Source of the DNA: Nitrososphaera sp.
Lineage (GTDB): Archaea > Thermoproteota > Nitrososphaeria > Nitrososphaerales > Nitrososphaeraceae
Length of the DNA stretch: 64,000 bases
Assembly (NCBI GenBank): GCA_035562555.1
Contig: DATMWK010000068.1
Span: 17,319-81,318, forward strand
Direction: 5' to 3'
Shown in pieces: positions 3,214 through 60,016 of the stretch; the first letter of the stretch is position 1; the number at the start of each line of letters is the position of its first letter. Position numbers and translations under genes: made by a program. The notes under the pieces are model-generated. The model searched no databases and was not told the origin of the DNA. It saw nothing but the letters and a program-made list of their open reading frames with translations.

Positions 3214-4131
3214 TTAGGAAGAGAAGATTTTTCTCACATCTTGAAACCTTTTTCTCAGAGTCACAATACTAATATCCCCAGACACTGCTATTTGAGCTTG
3301 GCTTACATTCTCTCCTTCTCTGAGACATGCTGCGTAGAGTACAGCTACGGCAAGCGCATTGGGATCTTTACCATGTGAAATAGGATCGTTCTTGATAGCT
3401 GATAGCATCTCAAGCGCACTCCTATAGGTCTTCTCACTCACCTTTGCCTTATTTGCTATTTTTGCTAGGTATTTATTTGAGTCGATCACCGGCAAGTGAA
3501 GCTCAAGGTTCTGCACAAGCAATCTGTAGCATTTGCCAGCAAATATCGCATCAGTATTCGCTGCTGAAGAGATTTCCTCAAGCGTCCTCGGTATCGAAAG
3601 GTCTCTGCACGCAGCATATACTGCTGCGACTATCAATGCTCTGATCGATCGCCCCTTGATTATCCTCTTGTCAAGAGCCTTCCTATAATTATATGCAGCC
3701 TTCTCGATCAAAGTGTCGCTGAGGGAGAGCTTATCCTTTATAGTACTCAGTATGGCAAATGCGTTCTTCAAGTTACGATGATAACTCCGGTTATTACTTG
3801 AGATCTTGTTCCATCTTCGCATCCTCTGAACTTTGCTTCTCTGCTCAGCACTTATTGCAACTCCATTTGCGTCTACGTTTGAGTATGAGATGAAAGTAGA
3901 TAACCCCATGTCATGAAAAGCAAGTGAAGAGGGCATACCCGTCCTACTCTTGCTTTCCATGTCCTCGCCCGAGTAAGACCTCCATTCTGGTCCCATCGAT
4001 TCAATATTGTCTTTAACGACCATTCCACAGGAAGAACAGATCGCTTCGCTCGTCTCAGAATCAAAAACAATGGACGTACTATTGCACAAAGAGCAAGCCT
4101 CCGTCGGTTCCGATGCAAGTTTGTAACTCAT
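3214..4131 (-). CDS. tfb: Transcription initiation factor IIB (TFB)
   Basis: 305 aa. N-terminal zinc ribbon (CSLCNS...CSSCGMV), followed by two cyclin-like repeats typical of TFB. Confidence 0.92.
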   Translation of the reverse strand: MSYKLASEPTEACSLCNSTSIVFDSETSEAICSSCGMVVKDNIESMGPEWRSYSGEDMESKSRTGMPSSLAFHDMGLSTFISYSNVDANGVAISAEQRSKVQRMRRWNKISSNNRSYHRNLKNAFAILSTIKDKLSLSDTLIEKAAYNYRKALDKRIIKGRSIRALIVAAVYAACRDLSIPRTLEEISSAANTDAIFAGKCYRLLVQNLELHLPVIDSNKYLAKIANKAKVSEKTYRSALEMLSAIKNDPISHGKDPNALAVAVLYAACLREGENVSQAQIAVSGDISIVTLRKRFQDVRKIFSS

Positions 4132-4272
4132 GTCTCAAACGATAAGTGCGGAATTAATTTAAAGGCCATGTATACAGTTTCGTTAAGTGCGCTGCAGTGT
4201 ACTGCAACTCGCTACATAAAACAATACTATAACACAGAAGCGCTCTCTTTAAACACCTAGTGCTCTGTTTAT

Positions 4273-53504: not shown

Positions 53505-53682
53505 GTTCTACACGTAACCAGACTATAGCCTTTAAAAACCTGTCTACTTATGAGTAACATCGTCGATAATGTTATATCTTTTGTAACCAAAGACCCCTGT
53601 AACCGCGGTCAGAGGTACCTAGGATACAATGATACTTTTATGGTCTTAATATCATGATGGCTTGGGTGCTATAGTAATAAGA

Positions 53683-54333
53683 ATGCCATTTGATAACAGG
53701 TGGGTAAAGCCACAGGGAGAAAGCGTTGGTCACAAATTGCTTGAGGGCATCAAGCCGCAAGCACCATTGAAGCCAAGGATAGAGGAAGCACAGAAAAAGT
53801 TGCATATGCAAATCTCAAGGCTAGATGCAATAGCCTTGAGAATGCAAGAAAAAGATAAACTGATTTTCAAGCGCGTAGTGCTTGCCATGCAAAGTCATGA
53901 TTCTTCACATGCAAAGGTCTTGTCAGGCGAACTGTCACAGATCCGAAAGATGAACAAGATGGTCACATCAGCGAAGCTAGCTTTAGAGCAGATACAGCTT
54001 AGGCTTAACACAATGACAGAGCTCGGAGATGTAGTGGTAACATTGAGCCCTGCAATGTCTGTTATAAAGGGATTGCAGAGCGGATTGTCAGGAATGATGC
54101 CAGAAGCAGATCAGTCATTTGGACAAATATCCGACTTGCTAGGAAACATCATGACAGACTCGGGACAGATACCGAATAGTGAAATTGCAAACTTCAACAC
54201 GATAAACGAAGATACAGCACAGATAATGGAAGAAGCTAGTACAGTGGTCGAAATGAACATGAAGAGCAAATTCCCAGATTTGCCTTCTCCAAACCTGGCA
54301 GCTGCAAAGAACCTAGAGGCAACAAGTTACTAG
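53683..54333 (+). CDS. cdvB: ESCRT-III (Snf7/Vps2-like) protein, CdvB family
   Basis: Coiled-coil helical hairpin pattern (KLHMQISRLDAIALRMQEKDK...AKVLSGELSQIRKMNKM...LEQIQLRLNT...) and an acidic C-terminus. The ATG at 53683 is preferred over the TTG at 53662. Confidence 0.78.
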   Translation: MPFDNRWVKPQGESVGHKLLEGIKPQAPLKPRIEEAQKKLHMQISRLDAIALRMQEKDKLIFKRVVLAMQSHDSSHAKVLSGELSQIRKMNKMVTSAKLALEQIQLRLNTMTELGDVVVTLSPAMSVIKGLQSGLSGMMPEADQSFGQISDLLGNIMTDSGQIPNSEIANFNTINEDTAQIMEEASTVVEMNMKSKFPDLPSPNLAAAKNLEATSY

Positions 54334-54356: not shown

Positions 54357-54686
54357 CTATTTTTTGCTCGCTATTTTTCTAACTTGTTTTTTTATCCTCG
54401 ATATCGTGGGGTAGCTATATCCTTTTTCCCTATAAGTCTTGATCATGGCCTTCCAATTATTGAGCCGCCAATTTGCTTGATCCTCTGTGAGCAAGAGCGT
54501 CTCTCTCTTCACTAAACTCTTTCGCCCAGGCAACAAATACCCGCCGCTTTCAGCCGTATAGCGGCTATACGCAAAGCGCAATCCAAAGAGCAATTCATGA
54601 GGTGGAAGCGCTCTAATATACACTGCAAATTCTCTACGTTGCTCCTCTGACAGGTTTACTTTGAACACAAATTCCCTACTGCGCAT
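54357..54686 (-). CDS. Hypothetical basic protein downstream of bioF
   Basis: 109 aa with an ATG start and a Lys/Arg-rich C-terminus (ISRIKKQVRKIASKK). A TATA-like AAAGTTTTTAATAAAG lies about 25-35 nt upstream, abutting the palindrome at 54723-54746. Confidence 0.5.
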   Translation of the reverse strand: MRSREFVFKVNLSEEQRREFAVYIRALPPHELLFGLRFAYSRYTAESGGYLLPGRKSLVKRETLLLTEDQANWRLNNWKAMIKTYREKGYSYPTISRIKKQVRKIASKK

Positions 54687-54722
54687 ATAAAGTGGCAGGA
54701 CCTAATCTTTATTAAAAACTTT

Positions 54723-54746
54723 ATTTCTAAACTCGAGTTTAGAAAT
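54723..54746. promoter_or_regulatory. 24-nt perfect palindrome ATTTCTAAACTCGAGTTTAGAAAT (bio site 1)
   Basis: Read directly. Lies 5 nt downstream of the bioF stop and 37 nt upstream of the ORF109 ATG. Confidence 0.9.
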
Positions 54747-54750
54747 TTTC

Positions 54751-55914
54751 CTATAGTATGCCTGTCTTTTTACCCGCTCTTTCAAGTGCCGAGAGCGAAA
54801 AATCCAAATGTCTTTTGCGGTGCATCGCATTCAGTGAAATTCTGAGTCGAGCATGACCCTTTTTGACTGTTGGATACCGAATTGCTTGAGCAAAAACACC
54901 CCGCTCTAGCAATTCTTTGGAGAGCTCCAAGGCCTGAGCTTCTTTACCGACTATGATTGGAACTATCTGGCTTGAAGAGTTTGCAACTTCAAATCCTAGC
55001 CTTTTGATTTCCTTGAAAAAATAGAGGACATTCCATTGAAGCCTCTTTTGTAAATATCCACTCTTTGCTATTGGAAGAGCCGTAATTGCTGCAGAGCATA
55101 AATGGTCAGGCAGGGCTGAAGTGTAGATAAATTGTCTTGATGTATTAATTAACAGCTCCCTAATGGGGAATGTAGTTGCTACATATCCTCCGAAGCAACC
55201 CAACGCCTTACTCATACTGCTCACATGGATGTCAAAGTTTACTCTCATTTTAGCTGGCATTCCTGAAAAGCCAGGCCCAAAGACAAAGTCACCATGTGCA
55301 TCGTCAATAATGGTTATTGCACCGTGGTCATCGGCTATGCTCTTTATTTCCGATAGTTTTCCCATGTCTCCGTCCATGCTAAAGATACCTTCGGTTATCA
55401 CAATTTTTCTGCCTCTTCCGCGCCCCATTTGCTCTTGTAAATGATCAGTGTCATTATGCCGAAAGACAACAATTGTTGCCCCGCTCAACCGACATGCATC
55501 CACTATGCTAGCATGGTTCAGCTCATCACTAAATATCGTTGAATTCTTGTCTGCAACTGTCGTAACCACACCCAAGTTAGCAGTGTAACCTGTGGGATAT
55601 AGAAGAGCTGATTCTGTTCTACGGTGGCATGCAAGCAGACCTTCAAGTTCGGTAAGTTTTGGATGGTTGCCTGCAATTAACCTTGAACCACATTGTGATA
55701 CTTCTTCGTTCAGTGCGGTAATAGTTTTCTTGATTACTTGCTTGTTTTGAGAGAGCCCGAGATAGTCGTTGGAGCAAAGATTAATGACCTCCTTGCCGTC
55801 GACATTGGCCATTGGACCTCTAGGAACGACCGTCCTAAGATGACGATATAACCCGCTATTTTCAAGAAAATCAAGCTGATCCTTGACAAAAGCGGTCCTA
55901 TGGCTTGAGCCCAA
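54751..55914 (-). CDS. bioF: 8-amino-7-oxononanoate synthase
   Basis: 387 aa alpha-oxoamine synthase. Motifs SNDYLGL, DELNHASI, DDAHG and the PLP lysine SMSKALG. Overlaps bioB by 17 nt. Confidence 0.92.
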   Translation of the reverse strand: MGSSHRTAFVKDQLDFLENSGLYRHLRTVVPRGPMANVDGKEVINLCSNDYLGLSQNKQVIKKTITALNEEVSQCGSRLIAGNHPKLTELEGLLACHRRTESALLYPTGYTANLGVVTTVADKNSTIFSDELNHASIVDACRLSGATIVVFRHNDTDHLQEQMGRGRGRKIVITEGIFSMDGDMGKLSEIKSIADDHGAITIIDDAHGDFVFGPGFSGMPAKMRVNFDIHVSSMSKALGCFGGYVATTFPIRELLINTSRQFIYTSALPDHLCSAAITALPIAKSGYLQKRLQWNVLYFFKEIKRLGFEVANSSSQIVPIIVGKEAQALELSKELLERGVFAQAIRYPTVKKGHARLRISLNAMHRKRHLDFSLSALERAGKKTGIL

Positions 55915-56881
55915 TTTCTTTTATCATCGCAATGTCCGTTTGGGCCGTATTTCCCCCAGTGGTCAGGTATCCGCCTGTGATGATACCATTTGCTCCTGCC
56001 TTGAGAGCTAGTTTCTCATTATGCTTGAGATGCACCTCCCGCCCACCTGCTATCTTAAGAATAGTTTTTGGCAATATGAAACGCCATACTGCAATTGTTT
56101 TGATTGCCTCTATAGGATCCATTGGCTCAAGATTCTCAAGCGGAGTCCCTTCTCTACCGATCAGAATATTGATAGGTACCTCTTCAGGGTGAAGCGATGC
56201 AAGTGAGAAAGCCAGCTCTAGCCTCTGTCTAGGGGTTTCACCCATACCTATTATACCCCCACAGCACAGCTCTAAACCCGCCTCCTTGACAATTTTTGCA
56301 GTATTTACTCTGTCAGAGAAGCGATGTGTGTTGCAGATATTGGGAAAAAAACTCTCAGCAGTTTCTAGGTTATGGTTATAACGCTTGACTCTCATAGCCT
56401 TTAGCTTCTTCGCTCTATCTAATGTCATAAACCCAAGAGAGACATTGACTTCAATATCCACTTTGGATCTAATCTCTCCTATTGCTTCACAGATCTGTTG
56501 AAAGTCCTTCTCGGGAGGCTCTCTGTAAGCGCATACCAAACAAAAACTTGTAGCGCCCTCTTCCTTAGCCTTTGCTGCCTTCTCGACTAACTTTTCTTTC
56601 CGCAATAAAGGATATTTCTCAATACCAGTATTGTAGAATGAGGATTGTGCACAAAATGAGCAATCCTCAGGACACCTCCCTGATTTTGCATTCACCAGAG
56701 CCTCGACATCTACCGTGTCACCGTTAAACGTCCGAGTGATAGTATTAGCGCAATCAGCAAGAAGCATGACGTCATCGGTGCCAAGTAATGTCTCTGCTTC
56801 TTCAAAGGTTATCGAGTCACCGGCGAGTACTCTCGCCGTACAACCTTGAATCAAGGCCGGGTCCATTATAAGGTGAGGCAA
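55898..56881 (-). CDS. bioB: Biotin synthase
   Basis: 327 aa. Radical SAM motif CPEDCSFC, plus YNHNLET and GGIIGMGE. TTG at 56881. The alternative ATG at 56856 fits a TATA-like AAATTTTAATTACC at 56893-56906. Confidence 0.93.
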   Translation of the reverse strand: MPHLIMDPALIQGCTARVLAGDSITFEEAETLLGTDDVMLLADCANTITRTFNGDTVDVEALVNAKSGRCPEDCSFCAQSSFYNTGIEKYPLLRKEKLVEKAAKAKEEGATSFCLVCAYREPPEKDFQQICEAIGEIRSKVDIEVNVSLGFMTLDRAKKLKAMRVKRYNHNLETAESFFPNICNTHRFSDRVNTAKIVKEAGLELCCGGIIGMGETPRQRLELAFSLASLHPEEVPINILIGREGTPLENLEPMDPIEAIKTIAVWRFILPKTILKIAGGREVHLKHNEKLALKAGANGIITGGYLTTGGNTAQTDIAMIKEIGLKP

Positions 56882-56930
56882 CCTGGATCCGGTAATTAAA
56901 ATTTCTGTTCAAAGAGCTGGGTTCCGGACG

Positions 56931-56958
56931 ATATCTCTAAATTCGAATTTAGAAATAT
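56931..56958. promoter_or_regulatory. Palindrome TCTAAATTCGAATTTAGA (bio site 2)
   Basis: Read directly. The core at 56936-56953 is an 18-nt perfect palindrome, extending to 28 nt (56931-56958) with one mismatch. Its centre lies about 63 nt upstream of the bioB TTG start. Confidence 0.9.
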
Positions 56959-57350
56959 GCGCTAGGCTTTTACTACGTATCTGAACCTTGAAAGATATGG
57001 CAAATAACGAATCCCTTTTTGGGGTATGCTCCTCGTTTATAAATATGACACATTACAGACTGGTTCAAAACGGAGGTTAAAGGGGGCCCCGGATAGCCAA
57101 AAAGACCCAATGATTAGTAGATCATTCTCTTCGCAGGTATGGAAAGAGAAGTGGCGGTTTTCGTTACATATCTGCACAATGCAAAACAGTTCAATAATGG
57201 AACGTTTTCTATACGGCACAAAAATGAGTACCTTTTTTTTACCCTTGGTTTCTAATAGGTTACGATCAAGTCGTCCATTTATTGACGCTACCCTTTTTGA
57301 ACACTTTTCTTGACAATGAGCTAATTATAGCAGAGCTTCTGATAGGGAAT

Positions 57351-57944
57351 ATGAAATATGCCTTTGCATACCTACGCGTAAGCACAGAAGAGCAGACTGT
57401 CCAGAATCAGAAGATTGCTCTTGAAAAATGGGCGTCCGCAAACAATTACTTAATTCTGGACTCTTTTGAAGATCCTGCTATAAGCGGTAAAGTTCCTGCC
57501 ACTGAGAGGCGCGGATTTCGAGAGATGCTGGAGCTCGTAAAAATGACTGGAGTTGATGCTGTTTTAGTCTATGAGTTATCACGCGTTGGAAGAACTTTCT
57601 GGGATACATTAGATGCGATAAAGGCAGTAGAGCGCTATGCATCTTTGATTTCATGCTCGCCCCGAGAATCATTTCTACAAACCACAGAGTCCAGTATCAG
57701 AAAACTCATGATCGGGATCCTGACATGGGCTGCCGAGAGAGAACGTGAGCTTCTAGTCCAGAGGACAAAGGATGGCATGGACCGGGCCAAAGCGGCAGGG
57801 AAAGGCATTGGTCGGCCTCAAAAGATAATTGATAAAGATAGGCTCATAACCCTACTTGCAGAAAATCACTCAAAAGCTAGAATAGCAAAGACTCTTGGGA
57901 TCTCAAAAGGTACCCTGTACAAGAAATTGAGTGACCTAGGATAG
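57351..57944 (+). CDS. Small serine recombinase (resolvase/invertase family)
   Basis: 197 aa from the ATG at 57351. Catalytic motif AYLRVSTEEQ, then VYELSRVGR, and a C-terminal HTH (ARIAKTLGISKGTLYKKL). Confidence 0.9.
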   Translation: MKYAFAYLRVSTEEQTVQNQKIALEKWASANNYLILDSFEDPAISGKVPATERRGFREMLELVKMTGVDAVLVYELSRVGRTFWDTLDAIKAVERYASLISCSPRESFLQTTESSIRKLMIGILTWAAERERELLVQRTKDGMDRAKAAGKGIGRPQKIIDKDRLITLLAENHSKARIAKTLGISKGTLYKKLSDLG

Positions 57945-59273
57945 TTTCTCTATCTTTCTCACCAACATAAGCTGCACGTTGACAAGCTTCTCTAGATCCC
58001 GCCTTCCAATACCGAGGGGTGGAATTAAGAGCATGATGTTGCGAAGCGGTCTAAGATACACTCTCATCTTTAGCGCTTGTTGTACTATAAAGTAGTTTAT
58101 GATTTCTTTATTTTTCAAGATGATAATGGGTTTATCGTTTTTTGCAAGCTCGATTCCAACAAGTAGACCCTTATGTCGGATATCAGCTACTATAGGAGAT
58201 TTGTAAAATTCAGGCAGTCTTGATGCTATATATTTTGTGTTCACTTTGATTTGCTGGATTAGATTATGGTTTTGGTAATTCTCAATATTTGCTAAGGCTG
58301 CGCTGCAGCCTACAGTATGGCCTGTAAAAGTGTGACCATGATATAAGAGCTTATTTTTACAGTATCTCCCTAAAAAAGCATCAAAGATGCGACGAGTAAC
58401 AAGAGTTACTGCTAGCGGGAAATAGCCTCCGGTAAGAGCTTTTCCAAAGCATACGATGTCTGGTTGTGACTTCTGGGCACGATATTCTACGACATTTCCA
58501 AGTCTACCAAAACCAGTTGCAATCTCGTCTAGAATTAGCAAGATGTCATAATCTCTGCACAGCCTTGCTATTTTTTTTTGATAACCTTTAGGAAAAACTA
58601 TTGCTCCTCCTGCTATCTGAGCGCCGCTTTCCATAACTAGCGCGGCGCATCGATTCATGTGCCTCTTGATAGTGTTCTCAGTCTTCTCAAGACACCATTC
58701 TACTAAGTCGCTTTCATTCGTAAACCTGCTCCCATAAAGGATAGGGCTTGGAACCCTGTGCACATTAAACAATAGAGGTTTATACGCTCTGAAAAAATCC
58801 TCGATGTAACCAATAGACATTGCGCCCGTTGTGTCTCCATGATATCCGTGCTCCAGTGAGATAAATTCCCTCTTTTTGTCTTTGCCGTTATTGTACCAGT
58901 ATTGAAGAGCTATCTTCATAGCGACCTCTATCGCGGTAGAGCCATTGTCAGTATAGAATACCTTCTCCATTCCCGTTGCCAATGTAATAAGCCTTTCAGC
59001 AAGCTTTATGGATGGTGCATTGGCAAAGCCAAACAAGGTCGAATGGGGGATGTTTTTAAGCTGATCTACCATGGCTTGAACAACTTTATTCTGTGTGTGA
59101 CCCCACACGTTGCACCACATGCTTGCAGTGCCGTCTAGGTATTTTCTTCCCTGGCTATCAACGAGGTAAAAACCATCTCCTTTCACTATTACCTTGTTAT
59201 TCCATTTTGCCCAGTCGCTCATCTGGGTATATGGATGCCATACAAACTCTTTGTCGGCATTTGTCAGGTTCAA
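57936..59273 (-). CDS. bioA: Adenosylmethionine-8-amino-7-oxononanoate aminotransferase
   Basis: 445 aa class III aminotransferase. Motifs DGTASMWCN, DEIATGFGR and the PLP lysine FGKALTGGY. TTG start. Confidence 0.93.
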   Translation of the reverse strand: MNLTNADKEFVWHPYTQMSDWAKWNNKVIVKGDGFYLVDSQGRKYLDGTASMWCNVWGHTQNKVVQAMVDQLKNIPHSTLFGFANAPSIKLAERLITLATGMEKVFYTDNGSTAIEVAMKIALQYWYNNGKDKKREFISLEHGYHGDTTGAMSIGYIEDFFRAYKPLLFNVHRVPSPILYGSRFTNESDLVEWCLEKTENTIKRHMNRCAALVMESGAQIAGGAIVFPKGYQKKIARLCRDYDILLILDEIATGFGRLGNVVEYRAQKSQPDIVCFGKALTGGYFPLAVTLVTRRIFDAFLGRYCKNKLLYHGHTFTGHTVGCSAALANIENYQNHNLIQQIKVNTKYIASRLPEFYKSPIVADIRHKGLLVGIELAKNDKPIIILKNKEIINYFIVQQALKMRVYLRPLRNIMLLIPPLGIGRRDLEKLVNVQLMLVRKIEKLS

Positions 59274-59317: not shown

Positions 59318-60016
59318 ATGCATGGTATCTTCATAACAGGGACAAGCACAGGAGTGGGCAAGACGGCAGTGGCTGCGGGACTGGCCTGGGCCCTGAGAAA
59401 GCAAGATATAGATGTTGGCATCATGAAGCCTTTTGCAACTGGAAGCAGAGTTTTTTCAAAAAAATACCAGTCTCAGGACACCGCAATACTTGCAAAGGCC
59501 TCCGGGGTAAATGATCCTGATTCCAGTCTCAATCCTTTTTTCTACTCGATAGCAGCTTCACCTCTAGTAGCTTCGGAGCTAAAGTACGGTACACCAGTTG
59601 ATATCAAAACGGCCGCGCGCCAGTTGAAAAAGCTTGGAAGAAAACACGAATTTCTAATTGCCGAAGGTATTGGAGGCATCATGGTTCCGTTGACTGAAAA
59701 TGAATCTGTTGCAGGTTTTATAAAGCAGGTAGATATGCCTATACTTATTGTCACTACAGCTAAACTTGGTACCCTTAACCACACTTTACTCACCGTAATG
59801 GCCTGTAAAAAATTTGGACTTAAAATTGCAGGAATAATTTTGAATAAAATGCCTAAGAAGCCTACTATAGTAGAGAAAAAGTCAGCAGAAGTTATTGAGA
59901 GGCTTACACATTTCAAAGTGTTAGCTCTAATTCCTCTCTTACAAAGGGAAAATTATGCTACTATTGGTAAGGTGCTAGAACATGATATGGACCTTGACAA
60001 ATTATTGTCCTTGTAG
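59318..60016 (+). CDS. bioD: Dethiobiotin synthetase
   Basis: 232 aa from the ATG at 59318. P-loop ITGTSTGVGKT, then EGIGG..VPL. Divergent from bioA. Confidence 0.88.
   Translation: MHGIFITGTSTGVGKTAVAAGLAWALRKQDIDVGIMKPFATGSRVFSKKYQSQDTAILAKASGVNDPDSSLNPFFYSIAASPLVASELKYGTPVDIKTAARQLKKLGRKHEFLIAEGIGGIMVPLTENESVAGFIKQVDMPILIVTTAKLGTLNHTLLTVMACKKFGLKIAGIILNKMPKKPTIVEKKSAEVIERLTHFKVLALIPLLQRENYATIGKVLEHDMDLDKLLSL

What the first reader, a model, noticed from the sequence alone, without database searches (positions are those of the whole stretch)
54723..56958. Two near-identical perfect palindromes bracket bioB-bioF exactly
What the sequence shows:
- Site 1 (54723-54746) is ATTTCTAAACTCGAGTTTAGAAAT, a 24-nt perfect dyad. 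It lies 5 nt after the bioF stop and abuts a TATA-like element of the next ORF.
- Site 2 (core 56936-56953) is TCTAAATTCGAATTTAGA, an 18-nt perfect dyad that extends to 28 nt with one mismatch. Its centre lies about 63 nt upstream of bioB.
- The two 18-nt cores differ only at one symmetric position pair (C..G versus T..A). This is a compensatory change that preserves the dyad.
- I saw no other full copy in the 64 kb.
- The 2.2-kb interval between them holds precisely the overlapping bioB-bioF pair.

Three readings are possible, all inference:
- (a) An operator for a dimeric regulator of biotin genes. No archaeal biotin operator of this form is known to me.
- (b) Crossover sites for the serine recombinase encoded 400 nt away. 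Dyad sites of about 24-28 bp are what such enzymes use. The symmetric central CG would make the sites orientation-neutral, allowing inversion or excision of a bioBF cassette.
- (c) RNA hairpins acting in termination or processing.
Basis: partly seen in the sequence, partly recalled or inferred. Interest (0 to 1): 0.7.

Follow-up and report, generated by a model that had tools for sequence, protein, structure and literature searches.

The report
Conserved archaeal palindromes bracketing biotin genes
The two palindromes are copies of a 28-bp DNA site found at one locus in all ammonia-oxidizing archaea; it is not biotin-specific, and one lineage has the biotin genes flipped exactly between the two copies.

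Summary
Site 1 (54723-54746) and site 2 (core 56936-56953) are the only copies in the window, and they bracket bioB-bioF.

- **Motif.** Both are instances of a 28-bp dyad, ATATTTCTAAAY-TCGA-RTTTAGAAATAT.
- **Distribution.** The dyad is conserved in all orders of ammonia-oxidizing archaea (AOA). Each genome holds 2-4 copies in one small region. In Nitrosopumilales it flanks unrelated genes.
- **Mobile elements.** About 46 circular elements of roughly 4.3 kb each carry one or two copies.
- **Nature of the site.** The two halves vary independently, so this is a sequence-specific protein site, not an RNA hairpin.
- **Recombinase.** In Nitrososphaeraceae a serine recombinase gene is inherited vertically next to the sites. 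Its catalytic Ser and Arg residues are invariant.
- **Inversion.** One clade, seen in at least 8 independent assemblies, has bioB-bioF inverted with both breakpoints inside the palindromes.
- **Stability.** Orientation is otherwise stable. Six conspecific contigs are all non-inverted.

My best reading is a recombination-type core site that bounds gene modules, with the neighbouring recombinase as the candidate catalyst in this family. A binding site for an unidentified AOA-wide protein remains a strong rival. The biotin-operator reading is not supported.

The parts
54721..54748 (.). Site 1: a 28-bp instance of the AOA dyad motif (perfect dyad 54723-54746). It lies 4 nt after the bioF stop and abuts the promoter of the 109-aa ORF.
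   Evidence: An orthologous site is present at this position in nearly all related loci.
56931..56958 (.). Site 2: a 28-bp instance of the same motif (perfect core 56936-56953). It lies 69 nt upstream of the bioB ATG and about 390 nt from the recombinase start.
   Evidence: An orthologous site lies 68-97 nt upstream of bioB in related loci whichever way bioB faces.
55898..56866 (-). bioB (biotin synthase). It forms the inner module together with bioF. The ATG is at 56866 and the open frame extends to a TTG at 56881.
   Evidence: TIGR00433, 390 bits.
54751..55914 (-). bioF (8-amino-7-oxononanoate synthase). It overlaps bioB by 17 nt.
   Evidence: TIGR00858, E=3e-107.
56893..56901 (-). TATA-like box of bioB (TTTTAATTA, -35 to -27 from the ATG). 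It lies inside the invertible interval, so the promoter travels with the genes.
   Evidence: Read from the sequence. Its function as a promoter is an inference.
54357..54686 (-). The 109-aa ORF (orf109), a highly conserved AOA protein of unknown function. Its TATA-like box (54710-54718) directly follows site 1.
   Evidence: 830 homologues; 52 invariant columns; no Pfam family; pLDDT 66, no fold match.
57351..57944 (+). Small serine recombinase of the resolvase/invertase type. It is inherited vertically between bioA and site 2, and its 3' end overlaps bioA by 9 nt.
57114..57330 (.). Strongly conserved non-coding blocks next to the recombinase promoter. On the minus strand they read TTGTCAA..GTTCAAAAAGGGT, TAAAAAAAAGG, ACGTTCCATTATTGAAC, ACGAAAACCGCC and GATCTACTAA. 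Between them and site 2 lies a spacer that varies in length among relatives.
   Evidence: alignment of 22 lineages; not motif half-sites; no consensus RNA structure.
57936..59273 (-). bioA, the neighbouring gene outside the bracketed interval. In some basal lineages a copy of the motif precedes or follows it.
   Evidence: L143, L204; L085/L086.
59318..60016 (+). bioD, transcribed divergently from bioA.

Best explanation
**Proposal.** The two palindromes are copies of a 28-bp, sequence-specific, dyad-symmetric DNA site that acts at the DNA level as a recombination-type core site.
- A protein dimer binds the two 13-bp arms (T-N-TTTCTAAAYTC).
- Strand exchange takes place in the invariant centre (TCGA).

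**Distribution.** The site is ancient. It occurs in all ammonia-oxidizing archaea, in 2-4 copies confined to one chromosomal neighbourhood, where it marks the boundaries of small gene modules.

**In this organism's family (Nitrososphaeraceae).**
- The modules are bioB-bioF, and in basal lineages also bioA and the recombinase gene itself.
- A vertically inherited small serine recombinase is encoded a few hundred bp from site 2.
- Exchange between site 1 and site 2 flips the whole bioB-bioF module together with its promoter. This has happened and become fixed in one clade.
- Because each site is symmetric, the same exchange could also excise the module.

**What is shown.** The motif, its distribution, the independence of its two halves, the synteny and catalytic conservation of the recombinase, and the inversion with breakpoints in the sites.

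**What is inferred.** That exchange at the sites is enzymatic, that the adjacent serine recombinase is the catalyst in this family, and that cleavage is at the central CG. In AOA that lack this recombinase, another protein must read the site.
For: **1. Site architecture (333 unique instances).**
- Information is high from -14 to +14 only.
- The centre CG is kept in 331 of 333 instances and C at +-8 in 331 of 333.
- Positions +-4 to +-7 are A/T-rich, and the outer block at +-8 to +-13 is conserved.
- This fits a recombinase core site of 13-2-13, or 11-6-11 as in dif (PMC8371274).

**2. The halves vary independently.**
- Pair 3: Watson-Crick fraction 0.70 against 0.50 expected. Pair 12: 0.51 against 0.47. 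No pairing signal beyond +-14.
- The selection is therefore for protein recognition, not for pairing.

**3. The inversion.**
- L023, L024, L036, L038, L041 and L044, plus the GTDB assemblies L098 and L151/L168, have bioB-bioF inverted between the recombinase gene and orf109.
- The reverse-strand BLAST segment ends inside both palindromes. Example: L023 3686-5953 against L005 9967-7732, with sites at 3690/5932 and 7736/9946.
- All flank distances are kept: 11 nt after bioF, 72 nt before bioB, 42 nt before orf109.

**4. The recombinase.**
- It is syntenic in all Nitrososphaeraceae loci that reach that far.
- In 48 unique orthologues Y6, R8, S10, R68, R71, E118, R119 and R125 are invariant.
- Its closest solved relatives are gamma-delta and Tn3 resolvase and Gin.
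- Finding a rare recombinase gene within 300-900 bp of one of 2-3 such sites in a roughly 3-Mb genome needs a causal link.

**5. One region per chromosome.** In every complete AOA chromosome hit, the exact matches lie in one region of at most 16 kb.

**6. Mobile elements.**
- About 46 circular elements of about 4.3 kb carry the site; all but L212, which has two, carry a single copy. The flanks match those of the chromosomal sites.
- None has a recognisable integrase or Rep.
- This resembles plasmid and IMEX (integrative mobile elements exploiting Xer) sites that rely on a host recombinase.

**7. Structural variation clusters at the sites.**
- Tandem repeats of 60-71 nt each carry a site, next to tRNA-Asn.
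- A gene is inserted 74 nt from site 2 in L090 and L107.
- The spacer beside site 2 ranges from 279 to 906 nt.
- In basal lineages sites flank the recombinase gene (L085/L086), bioA plus the recombinase gene (L204) or bioA (L143).

**8. Gene context.** The site occurs in tandem, divergent and convergent intergenic regions. This fits a DNA-level site better than an operator or a terminator.
Against: - The motif is present, equally well conserved, in all AOA orders that have no recombinase gene nearby.
- The bioB-bioF inversion is one monophyletic event that has stayed stable down to about 75% nucleotide identity.
- Six contigs from different samples that encode the identical BioF are all non-inverted.
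- About 70 Nitrosopumilales loci show no inversion. Exchange is therefore rare, and rare homologous recombination between 28-34-bp inverted repeats could also produce one inversion.
- The second inversion (bioB alone) has a site at only one junction.
- No accessory half-sites for the motif lie near the recombinase gene.
- The recombinase has Ser where resolvases have the conserved Asp67.
- Site positions relative to the starts of orthologous genes are constant, as expected for regulatory sites too.
- Nothing here shows which protein binds the site.
Confidence: 0.45

Rival explanations
1. The dyad is the binding site of a still unidentified, AOA-wide dimeric DNA-binding protein with no recombination role. 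Candidates are a local transcription factor or insulator, a nucleoid protein, or a centromere-like site analogous to parS. Under this reading the serine recombinase is a domesticated remnant of a mobile element. The single inversion arose by rare homologous recombination or template switching between the 28-34-bp inverted repeats.
For: - The 28-bp sequence is conserved across the whole class, and its halves vary independently.
- There are a few clustered copies per genome, as for parS.
- Distances to orthologous gene starts are constant: about 35-43 nt to orf109, 68-79 nt to bioB, 67-70 nt to the DUF2299 gene and 93 nt to the Zn-ribbon gene.
- The site abuts TATA-like boxes at orf109, at the DUF2299 gene and in the 4.3-kb circles.
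- Orientation is stable and no polymorphism is seen.
- The motif exists without any nearby recombinase gene in most AOA.
Against: - The flanking genes are completely different between orders while the site is nearly invariant. That is atypical for an operator with a conserved regulon.
- Conserved copies lie between convergent genes, for example 14 nt after the PNPOx stop facing another 3' end.
- It leaves unexplained why a recombinase gene sits next to the sites and why structural variation clusters there.
- No conserved candidate binding protein is encoded next to the sites in all orders.
Confidence: 0.33
2. The dyad is the AOA counterpart of dif. It would be the core site of a chromosomally encoded tyrosine recombinase of the XerA type, with 11-bp arms and a 6-bp spacer YTCGAR. 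Extra copies would be left by elements that integrate there using the host enzyme, and the 4.3-kb circles would be such elements or would use the site for multimer resolution. Under this reading the serine recombinase gene arrived with one integration.
For: - The motif has the 28-bp 11-6-11 layout that defines dif in bacteria and archaea (PMC8371274, PMC2958812).
- There is one locus per chromosome.
- The integrase-less circles carry the site, all but one as a single copy.
- Tandem site arrays lie next to a tRNA gene.
- Archaeal Xer alone performs excision and inversion between isolated dif sites in vitro, and S. solfataricus has two dyads at its dif locus (PMC3020120, PMC2958812).
Against: - There are 2-4 well-conserved copies separated by housekeeping genes, not a single copy.
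- The site, including its spacer, is fully symmetric, so it carries no direction.
- It shows no sequence similarity to P. abyssi dif, ATTGGATATAA-TCGGCC-TTATATCTAAA.
- The presence of XerA in AOA and the position of the locus relative to the replication terminus could not be tested.
Confidence: 0.15
3. The palindromes act as RNA hairpins, as terminators or 3'-end or processing signals of the bioBF mRNA and other transcripts.
For: - Sites begin 4-15 nt after the stop codons of bioF, the PNPOx-like gene and a thioredoxin-like gene.
- In the bioF transcript sense, site 1 is followed by a T5 run.
Against: - There is no compensatory covariation. The sequence itself, not the pairing, is conserved.
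- The hairpins are weak, at -8.1 and -4.4 kcal/mol.
- Site 2 and the site between divergent bioB and orf109 in the inverted clade are not downstream of any gene.
- Only 2-4 transcription units per genome would use the signal.
Confidence: 0.04
4. The palindromes are operators of a biotin-responsive regulator. The candidates are the 109-aa ORF product or the recombinase acting as a repressor of bioB and orf109.
For: - In Nitrososphaerales the sites precede bioB, and in some lineages bioA (L143, L204).
- A site lies in the promoter of orf109, whose C-terminus looks like a helix-turn-helix (my own reading of the sequence).
Against: - In Nitrosopumilales and Nitrosotalea the same motif flanks non-biotin genes, and bio genes are absent from or distant to the sites.
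- orf109 has no detectable DNA-binding family or fold.
- orf109 keeps its synteny with cdvB rather than with the bio genes (L077).
Confidence: 0.03

Closest known systems
DNA invertase systems (Hin/hix, Gin/gix, Cin, Pin) and resolvase/res site I (Tn3, gamma-delta)
   Same: - A small serine recombinase (Resolvase plus HTH_7) is encoded next to dyad sites of about 28 bp.
- The central dinucleotide is identical in the partner sites.
- The half-sites have an A-tract followed by C near the centre, and a conserved outer block.
- The segment bounded by two sites is found in both orientations.
- The resemblance of the half-site to hix and gix is recalled from memory, not tested.
   Different: - The system is archaeal and inherited vertically within a housekeeping biosynthetic cluster.
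- The sites are perfectly symmetric, centre included, so they carry no orientation.
- The promoter lies inside the segment, so inversion is not an obvious on/off switch.
- No enhancer or accessory half-sites were detected.
- Orientation is fixed within clades rather than variable.
- The site family is far more widespread than the recombinase.
- The Asp67 position is Ser in all orthologues.
Xer/dif, elements that exploit it (IMEX), and plasmid pdif modules of Acinetobacter
   Same: - The layout is 28 bp, 11-6-11.
- There is one chromosomal locus.
- Small circular elements without an integrase carry the site (one copy each, two in L212).
- Gene modules are bounded by sites and can be found inverted (PMC8371274, PMC11705084 by title and abstract only).
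   Different: - There are several chromosomal copies, separated by essential genes.
- The spacer is symmetric.
- There is no similarity to known archaeal dif sequences.
- The only recombinase seen nearby is of the serine family.
Bacterial parS centromere sites
   Same: A short perfect palindrome is conserved across a whole phylum-level group, with a few clustered copies per chromosome, and is also borne by mobile elements.
   Different: - No ParB- or SegB-like gene was seen at the locus.
- Rearrangement breakpoints coincide with the sites.
- A recombinase gene lies adjacent.
BirA, BioQ and BioR biotin operators
   Same: In this family, palindromes lie upstream of bioB and in some lineages of bioA.
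   Different: - The motif is not tied to bio genes outside Nitrososphaerales.
- At 28 bp with an invariant centre, it is unlike those operators. This last point rests on my own knowledge and was not tested.

Membership tests
Crossover site of a small serine recombinase (hix, gix or res site I type) | Dyad of about 26-30 bp with two 12-13-bp half-sites around a 2-bp crossover | tested here: met
   The logo from 333 instances is informative from -14 to +14 and symmetric about C|G.
Crossover site of a small serine recombinase (hix, gix or res site I type) | Central dinucleotide identical in partner sites | tested here: met
   CG in 331 of 333 instances, and in both window sites.
Crossover site of a small serine recombinase (hix, gix or res site I type) | Cognate serine recombinase with intact catalytic residues encoded nearby | tested here: inconclusive
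   Met in Nitrososphaeraceae: S10, R8, R68 and R71 are invariant in 48 orthologues, although D67 is Ser. Not met in Nitrosopumilales and Nitrosotalea loci, which carry the same motif without a recombinase gene within the 8-kb loci.
Crossover site of a small serine recombinase (hix, gix or res site I type) | DNA between two sites occurs in both orientations, with junctions in the sites | tested here: met
   The inverted clade has BLAST segment ends inside both palindromes. This holds between lineages only.
Crossover site of a small serine recombinase (hix, gix or res site I type) | Orientation heterogeneity within a population (ongoing switching) | tested here: not met
   Six contigs from different samples with the identical BioF are all non-inverted, and the inversion is monophyletic. 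Read-level data were not available, so low-frequency switching is not excluded.
Crossover site of a small serine recombinase (hix, gix or res site I type) | The recombinase binds and cleaves the site | not testable with these tools
   Needs EMSA and in vitro recombination assays.
Xer/dif | 28-bp site made of two 11-bp inverted arms and a 6-bp spacer | tested here: met
   ATATTTCTAAA-YTCGAR-TTTAGAAATAT. The definition is taken from PMC8371274 and PMC2958812.
Xer/dif | Single copy per chromosome | tested here: not met
   There are 2-4 copies per genome, though all within one region of at most 16 kb.
Xer/dif | Sequence relatedness to known archaeal or bacterial dif | tested here: not met
   By eye, no alignment in register with P. 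abyssi dif ATTGGATATAATCGGCCTTATATCTAAA.
Xer/dif | A cognate XerA is present, and the site is placed in relation to the replication terminus | not tested
   No whole-genome access was left. The N. gargensis locus lies at 1.366 of 2.834 Mb, but the origin coordinate is unknown to me.
Biotin-regulon operator | Sites precede biotin genes wherever the motif occurs | tested here: not met
   In Nitrosopumilales the motif flanks the DUF2299, Zn-ribbon, PNPOx-like and L6 genes.
RNA hairpin (terminator or processing signal) | Pairing is preserved by compensatory changes and the hairpin is stable | tested here: not met
   Observed Watson-Crick fractions are close to those expected for independent halves. 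Free energies are -8.1 and -4.4 kcal/mol.
REP- or MITE-like dispersed repeat | Many copies dispersed over unrelated intergenic regions of a genome | tested here: not met
   There are two copies in 64 kb. Every complete chromosome hit has one region only.
Archaeal replication origin (ORB elements) | Repeats clustered in an AT-rich intergenic region next to orc1/cdc6 | tested here: not met
   No orc1/cdc6-like gene is among the conserved neighbours. The sites are separated by genes. The N. maritimus origin counts as a true positive for Ori-Finder 2 (PMC4164010); my recollection that this tool anchors its predictions on cdc6 was not checked here.

The most novel reading that the evidence does not exclude
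Ammonia-oxidizing archaea possess a previously undescribed chromosomal recombination locus built on one 28-bp symmetric core site. That site would serve as their dif-like or module-exchange site. It would be exploited by a family of integrase-less circular viruses or plasmids of about 4.3 kb, making them an archaeal counterpart of IMEX elements. In Nitrososphaeraceae it would be served by a domesticated serine recombinase. That would be the first cellular, vertically inherited serine-recombinase system in archaea, and it would be able to flip or excise the biotin synthesis module.
Probability: 0.2. Interest if true: 0.85.

Novelty: new variant of a known kind. Interest (0 to 1): 0.62.

Why it matters
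- Ammonia-oxidizing archaea are globally important, yet almost nothing is known about their cis-acting chromosomal sites or their site-specific recombination.
- A 28-bp site conserved across the whole class gives a concrete handle for finding the protein that reads it. The site is confined to one locus per genome and shared with small circular mobile elements.
- That protein could act in chromosome dimer resolution, in segregation, or in module exchange.
- A review states that archaeal serine recombinases have been seen in transposons but never fully investigated (PMC8371274). A vertically inherited one with candidate sites and a natural inversion would be a tractable first case.
- The site and recombinase could also become a genetic tool for organisms that still lack genetics.
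- For annotation, the result warns against calling this motif a biotin operator.

Tried and rejected
- **Biotin operator.** Rejected after the genome-collection scan showed the motif at non-biotin genes in other orders.
- **RbkR riboflavin operator.** I considered this because a PNPOx-like gene flanks the site. The thaumarchaeal RbkR motif is TTAC-N10-GTAA, so it does not match.
- **RNA structure.** There is no Rfam hit in the window, no covariation, and the hairpins are weak.
- **Conserved blocks between the recombinase gene and site 2 as a structured RNA or a small ORF.** There is no consensus fold, and the ORFs are not conserved.
- **The same blocks as accessory half-sites of the motif.** The weight-matrix scan found none.
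- **CRISPR-like array.** The 71-nt tandem units in Nitrosopumilus have identical 'spacers', so they are plain tandem duplications.
- **Replication origin.** No orc1/cdc6 neighbour was found.
- **Local GC skew as a test for terminus position.** It was uninformative over 64 kb.
- **orf109 as a DNA-binding regulator.** The structure model had low confidence (pLDDT 66) and no significant fold match.
- **Integrated copies of the 4.3-kb circles, or shared proteins with AOA loci.** None were found.
- **Relatives of the recombinase in viral contigs.** None were found.
- **Literature searches for the motif, for AOA dif or terminus, and for archaeal invertases.** Nothing relevant turned up. The Pelve et al. 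2013 origin-mapping paper was not available.
- **Differing +-3 pairs as a device that makes sites 1 and 2 incompatible.** About a quarter of lineages have identical spacers, as expected by chance, so I dropped the idea.
- **** was an empty script.

Full report
**1.

- Site 1 (54723-54746, ATTTCTAAACTCGAGTTTAGAAAT) is a perfect 24-nt dyad.
- The site 2 core (56936-56953, TCTAAATTCGAATTTAGA) is a perfect 18-nt dyad. It extends to 28 nt with one mismatched pair.
- These are the only matches in the window allowing up to 3 mismatches, against 0.14 expected. A half-site weight matrix finds no other strong half-site in 64 kb.
- All genes between and around the sites read on the minus strand except the recombinase gene and bioD. 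The order on the minus strand is:
  - bioA (59273 to 57936);
  - the serine recombinase gene on the plus strand (57351-57944), whose 3' end overlaps that of bioA;
  - about 390 nt of non-coding DNA;
  - site 2;
  - the bioB promoter, then bioB (ATG at 56866) and the overlapping bioF;
  - 4 nt;
  - site 1;
  - a TATA-like box and the 109-aa ORF (orf109);
  - a convergent CdvB-family gene.
- The organism is a Nitrososphaera-like ammonia-oxidizing archaeon (AOA).

**2. The sites are conserved, and so is the recombinase gene**

- orf109 has 830 or more homologues.
- Contexts came from exact-protein look-ups and from 80 metagenome loci.
- They show the same order throughout Nitrososphaeraceae, including Ca. 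N. gargensis: bioD, bioA, recombinase, site, bioB-bioF, site, orf109, cdvB.
- The recombinase gene is therefore vertically inherited, not a recent insertion.
- In 48 unique orthologues (66-98% identity) the gamma-delta resolvase positions Y6, R8, S10, Q14, D36, R45, R68, R71, E118, R119 and R125 are invariant.
- Position 67 is Ser and position 124 is Gln in all of them.
- The closest solved relatives are gamma-delta and Tn3 resolvase and Gin.

**3. The bracketed segment has been inverted exactly at the sites**

- In L023, L024, L036, L038, L041 and L044, bioB-bioF lies in the opposite orientation between the recombinase gene and orf109. The same holds for the GTDB assemblies L098 and L151/L168.
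- BLAST against non-inverted relatives gives a plus, a minus and a plus segment. The minus segment ends inside the two palindromes.
- Example: L023 3686-5953 aligns to L005 9967-7732, with sites at 3690/5932 and 7736/9946.
- All flank distances are retained: 11 nt after the bioF stop, 72 nt before bioB and 42 nt before orf109.
- A neighbour-joining tree of BioB, BioF and orf109 places all inverted loci in one clade. This is one old event, stable down to about 75% nucleotide identity.
- A second clade has bioB alone inverted, but with a site at only one junction.
- Six contigs from different samples that encode the identical BioF are all non-inverted.
- I therefore see evolutionary inversion, not visible phase variation. 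Read-level data could not be examined.

**4. The motif is not biotin-specific and not specific to the recombinase**

- I scanned one genome per species of the GTDB-based collection for TCTAAAYTCGARTTTAGA.
- Five of those are non-thaumarchaeal and look like chance matches (Gammaproteobacteria, Anaerolineaceae, Bacteroidia, Planctomycetales and an unclassified 'uncultured archaeon'). The other 115 are named as Nitrososphaerota of every order, or as Thermoproteota MAGs carrying the same bio locus. The orders include Nitrosopumilus, Nitrosarchaeum, Nitrosotenuis, Nitrosotalea, Nitrosopelagicus and Nitrososphaera.
- Every complete chromosome among the hits has all its matches in one region of at most 16 kb.
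- In Nitrosopumilales the conserved layout is: L6, a 96-aa gene, tRNA-Asn, site (often duplicated in tandem units of 60-71 nt), Zn-ribbon gene, small membrane gene, site, DUF2299 gene, further genes, site, then a PNPOx-like gene and an ArsR-like gene on the opposite strand. No bio genes or recombinase gene lie in these 8-kb loci.
- These flanking genes have no homologues in the window.
- In Nitrosotalea the site lies 15 nt after a thioredoxin-like gene and about 100 nt upstream of cdvB.
- Sites occur between tandem, divergent and convergent genes.
- In basal Nitrososphaerales, sites flank the recombinase gene (L085/L086), bioA plus the recombinase gene (L204) or bioA (L143). L174 has three copies in the gap.

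**5. The site is recognised as sequence, not as a hairpin**

- From 333 unique instances the motif is ATATTTCTAAAY-TCGA-RTTTAGAAATAT.
- Positions +-1, +-2 and +-8 carry close to 2 bits. Position +-3 is Y/R. Position +-12 carries little information, and there is none beyond +-14.
- Symmetric positions vary almost independently. Pair 3 has a Watson-Crick fraction of 0.70 against 0.50 expected, and pair 12 has 0.51 against 0.47.
- About 30% of sites are T..G or C..A hybrids at +-3.
- Only the bioB-upstream class shows a weak tendency to extend the dyad to +-17.
- The RNA hairpins would be weak, and no Rfam family matches.
- This pattern is what a dimeric DNA-binding protein produces.
- The length and layout fit both a serine-recombinase core (13-2-13) and the 11-6-11 layout that defines dif (PMC8371274, PMC2958812).
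- There is no similarity to P. abyssi dif.

**6. Mobile elements carry the site**

- The same pattern occurs in 50 IMG/VR contigs. About 46 of them are 4.1-4.7 kb long, and several are circular by terminal redundancy.
- Each of these carries one copy (L212 has two), with the chromosomal-type flanks (tgttTCTAAA...TTTAGAaaca). The copy sits in a short divergent intergenic region.
- Their ORFs match no Pfam or PHROG family, and no integrase or Rep is recognisable.
- They share no proteins with the AOA loci, and I found no integrated copies.

**7. Interpretation**

- The biotin-operator and RNA-hairpin readings fail on the points above.
- What remains is a DNA-level protein site with an unusual set of properties:
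  - it is nearly invariant across a class while its neighbouring genes change;
  - it is confined to one locus per genome;
  - it is shared with integrase-less circles;
  - it sits where structural variation clusters. Examples are the inversion, the tandem site duplications next to a tRNA gene, a gene inserted 74 nt from site 2 in L090 and L107, and a spacer of 279-906 nt beside site 2;
  - in one family a catalytically intact serine recombinase gene lies a few hundred bp away.
- I consider a recombination-type core site the best single explanation (0.45). The adjacent recombinase is the candidate catalyst in Nitrososphaeraceae.
- The main rival (0.33) is a non-recombinational binding site for an unknown AOA-wide protein, with the one inversion caused by rare homologous exchange between the inverted repeats.
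- A dif-like site for a tyrosine recombinase (0.15) is a variant of the recombination idea. It explains the pan-AOA distribution and the circles better, but the multiple symmetric copies worse.
- Because the bioB promoter lies inside the segment and orf109 keeps its own promoter, inversion does not obviously switch expression. Its consequence would be a change in read-through partners, either orf109 or the recombinase gene. That consequence is an inference.

**8. Open points**

- The reader protein is unidentified.
- The conserved non-coding blocks next to the recombinase promoter (57114-57330) remain unexplained. They are neither motif half-sites nor a structured RNA.

Noticed in passing
window 57114-57330 (minus-strand reading), between the recombinase start and the variable spacer: About 220 nt of non-coding DNA is conserved in all recombinase-bearing lineages. 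It holds TTGTCAA-N9-GTTCAAAAAGGGT, TAAAAAAA-GG, ACGTTCC-TTTTTGAAC (an inverted copy of the GTTCAAAAAGG block about 95 nt away), ACGAAAACCGCC and GATCTA-CAA. It is not a conserved ORF, not a structured RNA and not made of motif half-sites. It may hold recombinase or regulator binding sites.
   Followed up: partly
L210-L259 (IMG/VR), e.g. L221 69-86 = 4230-4247: A family of about 46 circular contigs of about 4.3 kb (38-43% GC) has entirely unannotatable ORFs. Each carries one copy of the AOA dyad (L212 has two) in a short divergent intergenic region. They are probably small AOA viruses or plasmids, but the host is unproven.
   Followed up: partly
L147 4532-4691; L136 4286-4454: In Nitrosopumilales the dyad directly follows tRNA-Asn (within 5-7 nt) and is tandemly duplicated in units of 60-71 nt. 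L147 has three identical 71-nt units.
   Followed up: partly
window 54357-54686 (-): orf109 is an AOA-wide 109-aa protein with 52 invariant residues among 17 homologues of 72-94% identity. It is always next to a CdvB-family gene and has no family or fold match. Its C-terminus (KGYSYPTISRIKKQ) looks like a helix-turn-helix.
   Followed up: partly
window 57351-57944 (+): All 48 recombinase orthologues have Ser at the position of resolvase Asp67 and Gln at the position of Glu124. From memory, E124Q is a classical activating (accessory-site-independent) mutation of gamma-delta and Tn3 resolvase. I did not check this in the literature here.
   Followed up: no
L065, L075, L076, L083, L088, L089: A second clade has bioB alone inverted, so that it is divergent from bioF. 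A dyad is present only at the bioB 5' junction. L083, L088 and L089 have no detectable recombinase gene in the locus held (L083 reaches only the last ~160 nt of bioA) but keep the dyads. In L065, L076 and L089 both dyads share the same derived left arm (TTCTTTCAGAA), which suggests sequence exchange between sites.
   Followed up: partly
L040 (site at 10), L074 (22), L095 (7), L101 (19), L104 (3), L201 (22): Several metagenome or MAG contigs end within 25 nt of a dyad. The cause could be assembly trouble at a palindrome or structural heterogeneity. The enrichment is modest and was not tested statistically.
   Followed up: no
L090 1519-2499; L107 2301-3329: In two Nitrososphaera MAGs a gene of 330-343 aa is inserted between site 2 and the recombinase-proximal conserved region. 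It starts 74 nt from the dyad.
   Followed up: no
window 53662-54333 (+): A CdvB1/B2-like ESCRT-III gene (NF041005, E=3e-50, below the curated cut-off) is convergent with orf109. In Nitrosotalea the dyad lies about 100 nt upstream of its orthologue.
   Followed up: no
window 57936-57944: The convergent bioA and recombinase genes overlap by 9 nt at their 3' ends. The overlap or abutment is kept in most relatives.
   Followed up: no
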